A DNA stretch of 64,000 bases, taken from the NCBI RefSeq assembly GCF_044704955.1, contig NC_091988.1, forward strand, positions 84,816,001-84,880,000, written 5' to 3'. This document shows positions 1,220-63,962 of this stretch, one piece after another. Under the pieces are notes generated by a model. That model ran no database searches and was not told the origin of the DNA. It saw nothing but the letters and a program-made list of their open reading frames with translations. Position 1 is the stretch's first letter. Every line of letters starts with the position of its first letter. The DNA is from Pristiophorus japonicus. Its lineage: Eukaryota. The translations under genes were made by a program, and so were the position numbers.

Positions 1220-4200
1220 ATGGGGCAACTAGTGAAGGGTTTGGTGCCTCTATTGGTTTTGATCGGAGTGGTTTGTTGCTCTGATACCAGGCAGCAGTTT
1301 AGAAACTTGGACTTCCCATGGAGCATGCAGAAGGCCACTCGTGTCCCTCCAGGCCCAGCTTTTGGTTCTGGTTTCAGTAAGTCTGAGGGGCGAAGTGTGT
1401 CTCCACTGCAGACTGTGATGGTGCAGTGTGGAGAGCAGAACCTGCTGGTCAGTGTACAGATGGATTTATTTGGAACCAGGCACCTGATTAAAGCAGCTGA
1501 TCTGACCCTGGGGTCAACAGGTTGTCGGCCAACTGGGGTCTACTCTCAGAACCACACCGTCCTATTTCATTATGGGCTCCATGAATGTGACAGCACAGTA
1601 AAGGTAATGTGATTCTTGATCTAAAACCTTCTGCAAACAAAGGGCCCCTGGGAGGAGGAACACTGGCATGGACTAGTTGGGCTGAATGGACTGTTTGTGC
1701 TGAACATTCTATGAAATATATGGACCTGTAACAATATGATTTTAATGTAAGCTTTCATTTTGATTGGGCTTTATGTTCAGAATATTTTAGTGAGGCCTGT
1801 TTAAATGAGATACTCATGGAGGTTTCTTTCCCTGATTCAACCTTTTATTGATTGAAAATAAACTGGTCATCTGGACTGAAGTACATGGTTACTAGACTGT
1901 CTTGAGCAATGTAACAGGTGGAGGTTGAGATGAAGGATTGTGGTGACATGGGTGACTTTTTTTTGATGTACATTTGCTGGTTTAGTTTTGATTTGAGATT
2001 GGTTGGGACACAGTTGAAGTTCCATGCTATTTTTGACTTGTAGAAAGAATCATGGGAACTGATTGCTAAATATTCAAGTGTTCTTTATGCAAAAATGCTT
2101 GGAAAAATTGAGGCATTTTTCATCAAATTAAGCTGCCCCTAGAGTAAAGGCAGAACATGCTTATGGTGAAATTGTACTGAGGAAACCTAGACTGAAGACA
2201 ATCCTTTGAAGGAATTCTCAGGATTGTTGAAATTTGGAATGTTATGTCTTGAATAGTCAGACTAGATATGGCAAGCTCAAAGTAAGCTGTGACCATAGTC
2301 CTTTTTATTACAGATCAGAGTCCCCTGAGACCTATTGATATATAAAAATATAATATATTATTTACAGCTTTATATGCATCACCATGTGACCATAAAGTAC
2401 TGAGACCCAATGGAGCAGTTATCCCTGGTGCTGTCTTCCATCCCTAAACCCCTCTGCCTTTCTACCACTCCATCTGTTTATGGCACTTATTAAAACTTTG
2501 TTTGTGGCCAAGCCTTTGGTCAAATATCTTGTGTTGATTTGGTGCCAAACTTTTTTTCTGAACCTCCCTGTGAAGTGCCTTAATGTTTTACAATGTCAAG
2601 TGAGTTTTATATAAATGCACAAGTGCTTGATTGTGGTTCACTTCCCCCAGAGGCCTACAATATCTCTTCAAATGGATTTGGATAGGGCTGGGACTCTAAT
2701 TAATAGAAGTATGAATTGCTGTGTGTGTTTCTCCAAACACTGCTCTCTTGTCCAAGAATAACTCCCTTGTTCTGTACCTGACCAGATCACATTTTCTCTC
2801 CCAGATGACGGATGACCTGCTGATTTACACCAGCCACCTGTACTACAGGCCAAGCCATATTGGAGTCATTGTGAGAACCAGTGGAGTAGTTGTCCCTATT
2901 GTGTGCCATTATCCCAGGTAAGGTGGATGATTGACAGGCTCTCCTTTTCTCTGATGGGGTAGTGAATTGGAAGTAAAACTTGCCTTGCTCCTTCCCACAG
3001 GAAGAGGACAGTGAGCAGCAATGCGATCAAGCCCACCTGGGTCCCCTTCTCCTCCACCAAGGCAGGAGAGGGACGTCTGTCATTCTCCCTGCGTCTGATG
3101 ACTGGTAAGTGATCGTCAATTATCTACCATGCATGTTTTACCCATTCCTTGGAATCAAGTGAGGAACCCAAAGCTTGTGTTCCTGCTCTCATTCCCTTTC
3201 CCTTTCCAGCTAACTGGAGTGCAGAGCGTACCTCCAATATCTACCACCTGGGTGACCTCATTAATATCGAGGCCTCTGTGATGACCATGAACCACATGCC
3301 TCTGAAGCTCTATATTGACCGCTGTATAGCTACACTGAGCCCAGACCAGGAGTCTACCCCCAGATACAACATTATTGACTTCAACGGGTAAGGTCTTTAT
3401 CTGGGCTGCATATGTCACTCTCATAACTGTTTGGCGGAGGAAATCCATTCTTAATGATGCAGCTCTTTCTGACCCTCTTTCCAGTTGCCTGTTGGACAGC
3501 CGAGACGAAGACTCCTTTTCTTCCTTCGTGTCACCGCGAGATCACCTGGAGAAGCTTCAGTTCAAGCTGGATGCATTCCGCTTCTTTGAAGACGACAGGG
3601 ACTTGGTAAGAGGAGACCAGATGTTGAGACAGTGAGCGTTTGACACTGAGTAACTTGTGCATGTGTCTCCTGCAGATCTTCATCACTTGCCACCTGAAAG
3701 TAGCTGCAGCAGATCAAAGGCCAGATTCAGTCAACAAAGCTTGTTCCTTCCAGAAGCCAGCCAACCAGTGAGTGAAATCTAACCAACAATGGTGATCCTC
3801 TTTGGTCAGAATGAATCCATATGCCAATGGTGTGCTTCCTTGTTTGTTTAGATGGTCCCTGGTGACTGAATTGGACCTGTCCATGGTGGAAGGATCCAAT
3901 GAGGTTTGTGCCTGTTGTGATGGGGGCAACTGCGGAGCCTCGAGATTGCGATCTGGAGGAAGACTTCACTCCAGGGGCAGGAGAGAGGTCCTATCTGAGC
4001 TGGGTATGTTGTGGTGGTATTGGGTGTTGGGGCTATTGTTTGTTGTTTGTTTGTAACTGGATGGAATGAATTGTTGCAGAGTCGGAGCCTGTGTGGGAGG
4101 GTGAAGTCTCCCTTGGACCCCTGATCATTCTGGATGCTGATCTGAAGGACCTGGTTCATTCGATGGGAAGTGAAGCTGTCGAGACTCGTGAGGAGATTCC

Positions 4201-4374
4201 GAGTTCTTCTCCAGGTGAGTGTTGATTTTCAGAACCCAATTCCAGTCTAGTGACTCCTGACTCAATGGCTTCTCATTCTCTGCAGGTGAGGTGCTTCTGG
4301 TTGTGACGTTGGCAGCTGGGGCCCTGATCTCAGCCACTCTGGTGGCTGCCTTCCTCTTCAGGAAACTCACCTGA
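1220..4374 (+). CDS. zp3: Zona pellucida sperm-binding protein 3-like (ZP3/ZPC), copy 1, 9 coding exons, 455 aa
   Basis: Exons read by hand, all GT-AG: 1220-1603, 2805-2917, 3001-3104, 3210-3387, 3485-3605, 3676-3767, 3852-4003, 4080-4214, 4286-4374 (1368 nt, open). Signal peptide; ZP-N Cys (VQCG, TGCRP, LHEC, VCHYPR); PTWVPF; FSLRLM; ZP-C ([30 protein letters not shown]); ZP3-type CACCDGGNC; furin site RGRR; hydrophobic patch [10 protein letters not shown]-terminal transmembrane segment. Confidence 0.93.
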
Positions 4375-4422
4375 ATCCTTTCTCTCATTTGGGCGCTTCC
4401 ATCATTTGTCAAAAAATGTAGT

Positions 4423-4428
4423 AATAAA
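4423..4428 (+). terminator. Polyadenylation signal, copy 1
   Basis: AATAAA about 50 nt after the stop codon, followed by a GT/T-rich tract; conserved in all four complete copies. Confidence 0.65.
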
Positions 4429-5382
4429 TTTGAAATGTGACTTGCTTGAATTAGTCTTTGGTCTTGGTGTTTTGAACTTCAGTTGTTTCCAAGGCCCTTT
4501 TTCCTGTGTTTAAATTCCACATTTCCCTTGTAATGGTTATTAAAAAAAAAATAAAATAAATTCCTAGTGCAGCTGCTTGTGCTATCATGATACTGGTCAC
4601 GGCACCCATCCCATTCCCACTTTCTCTAATGAGCCTCCATTCCCTCCGACTGTTTCCAGCACATTAGTCGGTCCCGGTTCTCTGATTTAGTGAAATGGCC
4701 TTTTGCCCATCTGCAATATTTTACATCAGTTAAAGGCCACAGGGTTTTTTTTCTTCATCCCAAATTGGTCCCAGTAGTGTGCAGATCACTGTTGGAAGGT
4801 TGAAATCCCAGCTGGAACACAATATTGAGTGAAGAATTGGGTCTGCCTGTGAGACCCTCCTTGGTAGAGCAAGACTGCTAATACTCACAGGTGAAGAATG
4901 AATGAATTTAGGCAGCAAAGGGCAGCTAACACCCTTGTAACTATTGGTGTGAGTCAACCATTCAGCAGAGAAAATGAGGGCCAGGGTTGAGTTACTGCAG
5001 ATTATATAAATATGTTTGCAAACTGTTTCTGTTTTGCTGGTAATGGTGCCATTCAACTGGGCTGTCTCCCAAAAGCCAGTGACTCACTGACCCTAGCAGC
5101 TCCTTTACTCCCTGCACCTGCTGCCTATTTCCTTGCCCTTTCATTTGATTGACAAACCTGGGCGCACAAATAATACATGGGAGAAAAATTCCAAGCTGAA
5201 GTGGAGCCTCTTGGCTGATTTCAATAGTCGCAGGATACTTGAAGTGGGTTAGTGTTGCAGCTGGTGACTTCTGCAGGGAGAGGATTTGGGGAGTGAGGAG
5301 TGAAGTTCTTTCAGAAAAAGGAAGACCAACCAACATAACATGGTGTTGGAACAAGTGGCGGTGGTGAGGTATGAATTATCAT

Positions 5383-62889: not shown

Positions 62890-62931
62890 ACACAGTTAAC
62901 GTTTCAGGTCGATGAACTTTCGTCAGAATGT
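62890..62931 (-). ncRNA. Degenerate minimal hammerhead-ribozyme-like motif within a Penelope-like fragment
   Basis: Minus strand reads CUGACGA-A-AGUUC-AUC-GACCU-GAAACGUU-AAC. Confidence 0.35.
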
Positions 62932-63452
62932 AATGTCGATGACCTTGCATCAGCGTCTGAAAGGAGGAGAGAGGCAGAGAGGAGGAGAGGCTCAGGGAGG
63001 ATATCCCAGAGCTGAGGGCAAAGGCAGCTGAAGGCACAGCCAGCAATGGTGGAGCAATCGAAATCAGGGAGACGCAAGAGTCCACAATTGGAGGAGCGCA
63101 GAGATCTCGGAGCGTTGCAGGGTTGGAGGAGCCAAGGCAGGGGCGGAGTCGGGCAGTGGTACAGAGATGGAAATAGACTTCTTTCAGTGAAACATTATCA
63201 AAGCTCTTAATAAAATATAGTTCTGTATTTATCTGAAGTTGGAAAGTTTGATTAAATTTACATAGTTTGAACAGAATGTATGTTCTTTAGGTGTCTGTAT
63301 ATGTTTCTTTCATTACATTCTGTTTCAGTAAACCTTCAGTACATCAAAAACAAAAGGAGAACTTGTCTTGTTCCCATAGACCCAGATAGTCTCCAGCCTG
63401 GAGCATCTCCCGATCACTGACCCAGTCTGTGTGAAAAACTTTCTGGAAACAA

Positions 63453-63544
63453 CCAATTAGTAAGATTGTTGGATAGTCTATTGGTTTAGTTGAACCACAC
63501 CTGCTCCAATTGTTTTCAGGTGACGGCAGGCTGTGTGTATAAAA
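63453..63544 (+). promoter_or_regulatory. Proximal promoter of ZP3 copy 5
   Basis: Same layout; TATAAAA 63538-63544. Confidence 0.65.
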
Positions 63545-63596
63545 GGGGATCAGGGGACTCCCCACAGAGCACAGTTGAGCTGTAGTAGTTTGTGTT

Positions 63597-63962
63597 ATGG
63601 GGCAACTAGTGAAGGGTTTGGGTGGAGTTGTTTGTCGCTCTGATACTAGGCTGCGGTTTAGAAACTGGGACTTCCCATGGAGCATTGAGAAGGCCGCTCG
63701 TGTCCCTCCTGGCCCAGCTTTTGGTTCTGGTTTCAGTAAGTCTGAGGGGCGAAGTGTGTCTCCACTGCAGACTGTGATGGTACAGTGTGGAGAGCAGAAC
63801 CTGCTGGTCAGTGTACAGATGGATTTATTTGGAACCAGGCACCTGATTAAAGCAGCTGATCTGACCCTGGGGTCAACAGGTTGTCGGCCTACTGGGGTCT
63901 ACTCTCAGAACCACACTGTCCTATTTCACTATGGGCTCCATGAATGTGACAGCACAGTAAAG
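63597..63962 (+). CDS. zp3: ZP3-like, copy 5, exon 1 only (gene runs off the window); signal peptide shortened by 6 aa
   Basis: 366-nt exon ending AAG|GTAATG like the other copies; lacks PLLVLI and has C>R in VVCRSD. Confidence 0.85.

What the first reader, a model, noticed from the sequence alone, without database searches (positions are those of the whole stretch)
1220..63962. Tandem amplification of apparently functional ZP3 egg-coat genes (at least 5 copies)
Seen: four complete copies keep an open spliced frame, GT-AG sites, all ZP cysteines, furin site, TM segment, promoter and polyA signal, while intergenic DNA has many indels. Known: mammals have one ZP3, and tandem zp3 amplification is described in some teleosts. 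Inference: selection for dosage or diversification of an egg-envelope protein, probably in a cartilaginous fish, where I do not know whether it is described. Both window ends lie inside units, so the array may be longer.
Basis: partly seen in the sequence, partly recalled or inferred. Interest (0 to 1): 0.7.

Follow-up and report, generated by a model that had tools for sequence, protein, structure and literature searches.

The report
Shark egg-coat gene mega-array
The four intact copies and one broken copy of the egg-coat gene ZP3 in this window are a slice of a 31-copy head-to-tail array (15 intact) in a shark genome that also holds over 100 further ZP3-like matches and about 95 matches to its partner gene type, which likely lets growing eggs make coat protein in bulk; such expansions are known in bony fish, but I found none described for sharks.

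Summary
Real, and larger than reported. The window holds four complete 9-exon ZP3-type genes. The fifth copy is a pseudogene. They belong to a 31-unit array (G000:C12, 84.36-84.95 Mb): 15 units open, 16 broken. Three sequence types are mixed by unequal crossing-over. Variants shared by intact copies show purifying selection (dN/dS 0.34; 0.17 in the ZP module). Variants private to one copy look neutral (0.74), and no domain shows positive selection. Genome-wide there are at least 149 ZP3 exon matches and about 95 trefoil matches in a ZP1/4-type array, so both filament partners are amplified. Annotations of other sharks also list many near-identical ZP3-like proteins. Best reading: birth-and-death amplification, likely kept for dosage, as reported in catfish and notothenioids. 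Expression was not shown. Distinctive features: this ZP3 lineage lacks the near-invariant linker N-glycan site (0 of 25 keep it, against 139 of 142 others), and Tx1-like elements interrupt three units' promoters at or beside the TATA box. An earlier scan note saw that targeting in another genome. Ten paper searches found no shark description, but one key paper was not held.

The parts
1220..4374 (+). ZP3-type gene copy 1 (array unit g23, type B), intact, 455 aa; exons 1220-1603, 2805-2917, 3001-3104, 3210-3387, 3485-3605, 3676-3767, 3852-4003, 4080-4214, 4286-4374
16634..19880 (+). ZP3-type gene copy 2 (g24, type A), intact, 456 aa; exons 16634-17017, 18306-18421, 18505-18608, 18714-18891, 18989-19109, 19180-19271, 19356-19507, 19584-19718, 19792-19880
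35231..38475 (+). ZP3-type gene copy 3 (g25, type C), intact, 456 aa; exons 35231-35614, 36887-37002, 37102-37205, 37311-37488, 37586-37706, 37777-37868, 37953-38104, 38181-38315, 38387-38475
50000..53147 (+). ZP3-type gene copy 4 (g26), intact, 456 aa; a mosaic with a type-B 5' part and a type-C 3' part; exons 50000-50383, 51575-51690, 51774-51877, 51983-52160, 52258-52378, 52449-52540, 52625-52776, 52853-52987, 53059-53147
63597..63962 (+). Exon 1 of copy 5 (g27), a pseudogene: 18-nt deletion in the signal peptide here; premature stop and frameshift beyond the window end
1020..1219 (+). Conserved proximal promoter of copy 1: TATA at 1161, CANNTG boxes at -99/-90/-80/-25, CCAAT boxes; no estrogen-response element at up to 1 mismatch in 2 kb. 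The same layout lies before copies 2-5 (TATA at 16575, 35172, 49941, 63538)
   Evidence: motif matches only, function untested
4423..4428 (+). AATAAA of copy 1 (equivalents about 46 nt after the stop in copies 2-4)
   Evidence: sequence
4375..16433 (.). Spacer of the repeat unit (unit period 14.7-18.6 kb in the window), rich in decayed retroelement pieces (CR1-like label recalled) that are duplicated with the gene; 83-96% identical between units

Best explanation
The window is a slice of a 31-unit tandem array of ZP3 (type I egg-coat subunit) genes, 15 open and 16 broken, that likely grows and shrinks by unequal crossing-over and is likely kept large by selection for egg-coat protein output in oocytes. 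Shown: the gene anatomy, the unit count, three sequence types with crossover mosaics, a ~95-kb higher-order repeat that copies pseudogenes along with intact genes, purifying selection on variants shared by intact copies, and a parallel array of the type II partner (trefoil + ZP-N) on C5. Taken from known ZP3 biology: each precursor would be secreted through its signal peptide, held by the C-terminal membrane segment, released at the R-X-R-R site, and zipped with ZP1/4-type subunits into two-protofilament egg-coat filaments. Inferred: oocyte expression, and selection on total output rather than on any single copy. Copies die by frameshift, loss of exon 1 (3 units) or retroelement insertion at the TATA box (3 units).
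For: Anatomy. ZP3 identity: E 9.8e-102 to chicken ZP3 3nk3 for P0009, which equals copy 1 over residues 36-455; Foldseek top hits are ZP3. Array: 31 units on C12 plus 4 on unplaced C160. Recombination: neighbouring-site incompatibility 0.134 against 0.250 in permutations, P=0.0005, 19 units; g22, g26, g17 and g19 are visible mosaics. Selection: variants shared by 2 or more of 11 intact core copies are 38 synonymous: 37 nonsynonymous, dN/dS 0.34 (ZP module 0.17); variants only in broken copies give 0.74; Fisher P=0.008. Partner co-amplified: 95 trefoil matches on C5 (counted by eye); 6 of 6 units in a 110-kb sample carry a ZP-N exon that resembles choriogenin H. Type I/type II pairing and the half-width zona of Zp3+/- mice: bioRxiv 10.1101/2023.06.21.544075, passages. 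Precedent: catfish ZP3 and ZP4 tandem arrays with pseudogenes, expressed only in oocytes (PMC13704971: abstract, Discussion, tables); copy number tracks transcript level in notothenioids (PMC5059455, passages).
Against: No expression evidence for any copy. Variants private to one intact copy are 7 synonymous: 15 nonsynonymous, dN/dS 0.74, the same as in pseudogenes (small numbers). 16 of 31 units are broken, and 4 of 6 sampled C5 units have a frameshift in their first two exons. In teleosts ZP copy number did not correlate significantly with chorion thickness (rho 0.286, P 0.493; PMC13704971). Unchecked scan notes list other tandem arrays in this genome (ferritin, IL-1beta, GPR139-like), so a general tendency to amplify may be enough. 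The closest in-array pairs (0.44-0.6% apart) are as close as the two alleles seen at unit g04 (5 substitutions and 1 indel in about 1080 bp), so one ~95-kb block could be a duplicated haplotype.
Confidence: 0.55

Rival explanations
1. Mutation-driven drift: once the gene was tandem, unequal crossing-over in a large, repeat-rich genome inflated the array, and selection needs only a few working copies.
For: 16 of 31 units broken; pseudogenes were themselves duplicated (g12 and g19 share a frameshift, g15 and g20 share exon-1 loss); private variants neutral; other unrelated arrays noted in this genome (unchecked).
Against: Variants shared by intact copies, which separate the three types, are under purifying selection. 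Both filament partners are amplified on different chromosomes. Many shark lineages show their own near-identical ZP3 sets. The large ferritin cluster of the Greenland shark is ovary-expressed (bioRxiv 10.1101/2024.09.09.611499, passages), which points to oocyte supply genes as a class.
Confidence: 0.25
2. Functional specialisation: this ZP3 lineage is a distinct subunit (no linker glycan, longer subdomain loop) amplified to change envelope properties or sperm interaction, with types A, B and C kept apart by diversifying selection.
For: The lineage is separate from the main elasmobranch ZP3 (99/95 and 100/99 support, 44 rows). The linker sequon is absent in 25 of 25 lineage sequences and present in 139 of 142 others; there is a 7-8 residue insertion before the subdomain cysteines. 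That glycan packs on the ZP1 subunit in the fish filament. All 11 intact core proteins are distinct.
Against: pN/pS is below 1 in all six domains. Copies are about 95-99% identical and recombine freely. The glycan is not needed for secretion. The other lineage outnumbers this one in the genome.
Confidence: 0.13
3. Assembly artefact: haplotypes or collapsed reads laid in series.
For: 26-27 kb blocks 99.1-99.5% identical at a ~95-kb offset; C160 is 98.9-99.1% identical to C12 blocks; allelic difference is about 0.5% at g04.
Against: The window copies differ by 2.1-6.8% in introns and fall into three types. 31 distinct units cannot be two haplotypes. No 200-N gap interrupts units g06-g31 (the one 320-N stretch in the window cannot be judged). 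Contig pieces on exon words shared by many units have roughly 8-40 times the depth of neighbouring unique pieces in three DNA runs; these runs are one sample, possibly the source, and depth is not a copy number.
Confidence: 0.05

Closest known systems
Catfish ZP3/ZP4 tandem arrays (PMC13704971; abstract, Discussion, figure legends and Table 1 read)
   Same: Tandem ZP3 and ZP4 clusters on separate chromosomes, mixed with pseudogenes; a dosage explanation is proposed.
   Different: 20-22 ZP3 and 13-19 ZP4 genes; the highest counts in its table are 44 ZP3 (salmon) and 75 in total (carp), and no shark row is given. Here there are at least 149 ZP3 exon matches and about 95 C5 trefoil matches (matches, not gene counts; many broken). 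Expression is shown there, not here.
Antarctic notothenioid ZP expansion (PMC5059455, passages)
   Same: Lineage-specific ZPC/ZPB copy gain, with transcript level following copy number.
   Different: Up to 37 copies per type, with an ice-melting neofunction; no such function is suggested here.
Chicken ZP3 (PDB 3nk3/3nk4) and fish ZP3/ZP1 filament (PDB 8bqu; bioRxiv 10.1101/2023.06.21.544075, passages)
   Same: ZP-N, ZP-C, 4-Cys ZP3 subdomain, Thr before the WVPF motif, furin site, membrane anchor; about 50% identity to 3nk3.
   Different: The linker Asn called invariant in that paper is Thr (31 of 35 units; Ile in 3, missing in 1), and there is a 7-8 residue insertion before the subdomain.
Elasmobranch 'zona pellucida sperm-binding protein 3-like' database models (e.g. 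Heptranchias XP_067833722, Scyliorhinus XP_038655904, Mustelus XP_078090935)
   Same: Many near-identical paralogs per species (90% clusters of 38, 33 and 15 members). Sawshark-named models are 93-100% identical to the window copies, so these genes are already annotated automatically.
   Different: Almost all belong to the glycan-bearing sister lineage (60-65% identical to the window copies). The window's lineage was seen elsewhere only as one sevengill protein (P0071, 80%). Cluster sizes include isoforms and unplaced scaffolds, so they overstate gene number.
Shark ferritin clusters (bioRxiv 10.1101/2024.09.09.611499, passages)
   Same: More than 100-copy clusters of an ovary-expressed gene in shark genomes.
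   Different: A different gene; that paper has 0 hits for 'zona', 'ZP3' or 'ZP4' in the main text.

Membership tests
ZP3 (ZPC, type I egg-coat subunit) | ZP-N plus ZP-C module directly after a short N-terminal region, no trefoil | tested here: met
   Pfam PF23344 and PF00100 only, on window exons and on P0063 (98% identical to copy 1)
ZP3 (ZPC, type I egg-coat subunit) | 8 module cysteines plus 4 ZP3-subdomain cysteines | tested here: met
   Cys 70-324 (8) and 351/353/354/359 in all four copies; they align with 3nk3
ZP3 (ZPC, type I egg-coat subunit) | Signal peptide, consensus furin site, C-terminal transmembrane segment | tested here: met
   hydropathy and R-X-R-R scan; helices 2-19 and 427-454 in the model
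ZP3 (ZPC, type I egg-coat subunit) | Closest solved structures are ZP3 | tested here: met
   (model mean pLDDT 63.7; interdomain orientation unreliable)
ZP3 (ZPC, type I egg-coat subunit) | Conserved N-glycosylation site in the interdomain linker (conserved trait, not part of the formal family definition) | tested here: not met
   0 of 25 lineage sequences keep it, against 139 of 142 others; described as invariant
ZP3 (ZPC, type I egg-coat subunit) | Expression in oocyte or follicle (or liver) and incorporation in the egg envelope with a type II subunit | not testable with these tools
   no run on record as RNA
ZP3.1 versus ZP3.2/ZP3.3 (Feng et al. 2018, PMC6262864) | Placement in the ZP3.1 clade and conserved synteny | tested here: inconclusive
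   Trees had no labelled ZP3.2 or ZP3.3 references; synteny was not examined; similarity to chicken ZP3 favours ZP3.1
Birth-and-death tandem multigene family | Tandem copies, many pseudogenes, purifying selection on intact copies | tested here: met
Birth-and-death tandem multigene family | Sequence exchange between copies (unequal crossing-over or conversion) | tested here: met
ZP1/4 (ZPB) for the C5 and C18 arrays | Signal peptide + trefoil + ZP module | tested here: inconclusive
   Trefoil and ZP-N shown for 6 of 95 C5 units; ZP-C not traced; for C18 only the trefoil exon was shown, and my ZP3-based profile found no ZP exon in 20 kb there

The most novel reading that the evidence does not exclude
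Sharks carry the largest egg-coat gene repertoires in vertebrates (here about 250 ZP3 and ZP1/4 loci counting pseudogenes), rebuilt independently in each lineage by co-amplifying both filament partners to supply giant oocytes. This array is an old second ZP3 lineage that has dropped the otherwise near-invariant linker glycan and would assemble a structurally different filament, while a Tx1-like retrotransposon that hits its TATA box prunes copy number.
Probability: 0.25. Interest if true: 0.7.

Novelty: new variant of a known kind. Interest (0 to 1): 0.45.

Why it matters
It would extend ZP gene amplification from teleosts to sharks, at several times the largest published counts I saw, and show both obligatory filament partners amplified together, which is what dosage balance predicts. 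Elasmobranchs with known egg size and reproductive mode would give a comparative test of why egg-coat genes amplify. The lineage without the linker glycan is a natural experiment on a contact seen in the ZP3/ZP1 filament structure. The individual genes are ordinary ZP3 and are already auto-annotated.

Tried and rejected
Expression: no RNA holder listed. Of four runs of unrecorded kind laid on copy 1, X5, X8 and X9 gave only sparse or repeat-derived cover; one X5 contig (depth 5) joins the end of exon 8 to the start of exon 2. Its mismatch pattern fits no assembled unit exactly; the 3-nt deletion is as in C160 unit u01. This is too thin to use as evidence. Depth as copy number: Logan contigs leave most exons uncovered, so only a rough contrast was possible. 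Positive selection: only counting methods were run, and no domain exceeded 1; no codon site models were available. Estrogen-response element: none at up to 1 mismatch in 2 kb upstream of the four copies; weak evidence on tissue. Other genes inside the 660-kb region: long ORFs looked like retroelements or simple repeats by eye, and no further ZP-like exons were found; flanking genes were not identified. mis-joined copies 3 and 4 through rigid motifs, and this was corrected. One search scored g01, g04 and g05 as broken because their exon 9 starts 12 nt earlier; searches show open frames, so they are counted as open (12+3=15). No complex prediction was run (textbook pair). Literature: searches (61 was for structure) gave no paper describing shark ZP arrays. 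Whale shark and elephant shark passages do not. Sano et al. 2022 on fish ZP genes was not held, and the supplement of Feng et al. 2018 could not be read; either may give cartilaginous-fish counts.
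Full report
Observation. Self-alignment shows a repeat unit of about 15-19 kb across the window. Splicing gives four complete 9-exon genes at 1220-4374, 16634-19880, 35231-38475 and 50000-53147. All junctions are GT-AG and the frames are open at 455-456 aa. Each has a hydrophobic N-terminus, 8 module and 4 subdomain cysteines, an R-X-R-R site, a C-terminal membrane segment, TATA at -59 and AATAAA 46-48 nt after the stop. The fifth copy, from 63597, has lost 18 nt of its signal peptide, and beyond the window it carries a TGA at codon 279 and a 16-nt frameshift. 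So there are four intact copies and one pseudogene.

Identity. Window exons match Pfam ZP-N and ZP-C. P0009, identical to copy 1 over residues 36-455, matches chicken ZP3 (3nk3) at E 9.8e-102 and fish ZP3 (8bqu) at 1.5e-69. A model of P0063 (mean pLDDT 63.7) finds ZP3 structures first. All 53 hits to exon 1 carry a shark or ray ZP3-like name, apart from one record labelled Salmonella, and the nearest are sawshark models. The genome is a shark's; the genes are already annotated automatically.

Extent. The window is G000:C12:84,816,001-84,880,000. In 660 kb around it there are 31 units containing exon 6: 3 on the minus strand and 28 on the plus strand. Fifteen have an open frame with canonical splice sites (12, plus g01, g04 and g05 with a longer exon 9). 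Sixteen are broken by frameshifts, stops, splice changes or loss of exon 1. Unplaced C160 holds 4 more (2 open) and is about 99% identical to C12 blocks, so it may be the other haplotype. A search with exon 4 gave 149 matches among 150 scored of 183 candidates. By eye these are 30 at this locus, 4 on C160, 25 in two other C12 clusters, 5 on C11, 6 scattered and, by subtraction, 79 on C4. These are matches, not gene counts. The ones sampled on C4, C11, C12:114 Mb and C6:146 Mb belong to a sister lineage.

How it grows. The core units fall into three types (A, B, C) that alternate along the array. Blocks of 26-27 kb recur at about 95 kb with 99.1-99.5% identity, and one block occurs three times. 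Pseudogenes were copied with their lesions (g12/g19, g15/g20). Incompatible sites are rarer among neighbours than by chance (0.134 against 0.250, P=0.0005, 91 sites, 19 units), and several units, window copy 4 among them, switch type within the gene. This fits unequal crossing-over (inference). Three dead units have the 3' end of one non-LTR retroelement family in the promoter: at the TATA box in g06 and g09 (12-bp duplication in g09) and about 12 bp upstream in g29. The g06 element is full length with an open EN-RT frame. The Tx1 label is recalled and also comes from scan note e1-8604063, which reported such targeting in another genome.

Selection. Among the window copies dS is 0.04-0.095, close to intron divergence, and dN/dS is 0.23-0.41. 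No frameshift separates them, where about 11 would be expected. Among 11 intact core copies, variants shared by two or more give dN/dS 0.34 (0.17 in the ZP module), against 0.74 for variants found only in broken copies (Fisher P=0.008). Against per-copy function, variants private to one intact copy also give 0.74 (7:15). No domain exceeds 1. The lineages have been under purifying selection, but it is not shown that each copy matters.

The partner. In the fish filament a ZP3 protofilament pairs with a ZP1/2/4 protofilament, and Zp3+/- mice have a half-width zona (bioRxiv 10.1101/2023.06.21.544075, passages). Dosage selection therefore predicts an amplified partner. A trefoil search gave 113 matches among 150 scored, 95 on C5 and 14 on C18 (counted by eye). 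Six of six C5 units in a 110-kb sample have a signal-trefoil exon followed by a ZP-N exon that resembles choriogenin H, and four of them show an early frameshift. C18 is unconfirmed.

Other sharks and the lineage. Clusters at 90% identity hold 38 (Heptranchias), 33 (Scyliorhinus), 15 (Mustelus) and 8-10 (Heterodontus, Chiloscyllium) members; up to 15 per cluster were listed, and they include isoforms and unplaced scaffolds. On a 167-sequence tree they group mostly by species or genus, partly by construction. The window's genes form a separate lineage with one sevengill protein and one further sawshark protein (99/95). The main lineage (100/99) includes sharks and rays (44 rows), which suggests an old split. 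The window's lineage lacks the linker N-glycosylation sequon in 25 of 25 sequences, while 139 of 142 others keep it, and it has a 7-8 residue insertion before the subdomain cysteines. That Asn is called invariant and its glycan contacts ZP1 in the filament, though it is not needed for secretion. Sampling was partial: 120 of 345 hits were listed.

Artefact check. Thirty-one distinct units of three types cannot be two haplotypes, and the window copies differ by 2.1-6.8% in introns. In DNA runs X1, X2 and X4, pieces on shared exon words are about 8-40 times deeper than unique pieces (one sample, not a copy number). But allelic difference at g04 is about 0.5%, like the closest in-array pairs, so the count may be inflated by up to one 95-kb block plus C160. 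Expression could not be tested (see Tried and rejected).

Comparison with print. Tandem ZP3 and ZP4 amplification with pseudogenes and oocyte-only expression is described in catfish, whose Table 1 tops out at 44 ZP3 and 75 ZP genes and has no shark row (PMC13704971). It is also described in notothenioids (PMC5059455, passages). Feng et al. found 3-33 ZP genes per vertebrate (PMC6262864, parts 1-2 of 5; supplement not readable). Searches found no account of shark ZP arrays; Sano et al. 2022 was not held.

Verdict. A real birth-and-death ZP3 array of a known kind, in a group where I found it undescribed, unusual in scale, in the co-amplified partner and in the lost glycan site. Dosage 0.55, drift 0.25, specialisation 0.13, artefact 0.05. 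Interest 0.45.

Noticed in passing
G000:C12:84,573,000-84,579,550 (L054); also 84,628,473-84,628,623 and 84,913,782-84,914,073: A non-LTR retroelement (open 1305-aa EN-RT frame; Tx1-like by recall) ends at the TATA box of ZP3 units g06 and g09 and about 12 bp upstream in g29, with 10-12 bp target duplications in g09 and g29. All three units are pseudogenes. Head-to-tail copies of the same element lie at 84.984-85.000 Mb.
   Followed up: partly
G000:C5:300.66-303.66 Mb and C18:58.05-58.55 Mb (L110-L152): About 95 and 14 trefoil-domain matches in tandem; the C5 units sampled are ZP1/4-type (trefoil + ZP-N), many frameshifted.
   Followed up: partly
G000:C4:247.2-250.6 Mb (L153-L158): About 79 ZP3 exon matches of the glycan-bearing sister lineage, arranged in a ~42-kb unit of three genes in mixed orientation.
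   Followed up: partly
window 4080-4214 joined to 2805-2865 (run X5): One contig joins the exon 8 donor to the exon 2 acceptor: a circular RNA or a read-through splice into the next unit; depth 5, run kind not on record.
   Followed up: partly
window 1100-4500, run X6 (organism B); L089, run X7 (organism C): In two other species some exon pieces have depth 400-1200 against about 14-18 for others, a hint of large ZP3 families there too (not a copy number).
   Followed up: no
G000:C12:84,554,200-84,572,250: An 18-kb CT-rich simple satellite ending at an assembly-type gap, at the edge of the young core of the array.
   Followed up: no
P0012: A shark-type ZP3 protein deposited under a Salmonella name; it groups with basking-shark sequences, so it is probably a contaminant record.
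   Followed up: no
G000:C6:98.50-98.51 Mb (L102): A lone copy of the same glycan-less ZP3 lineage on another chromosome; on the tree its likely model (P0001) pairs with the sevengill protein, so it may mark the ancestral locus.
   Followed up: partly
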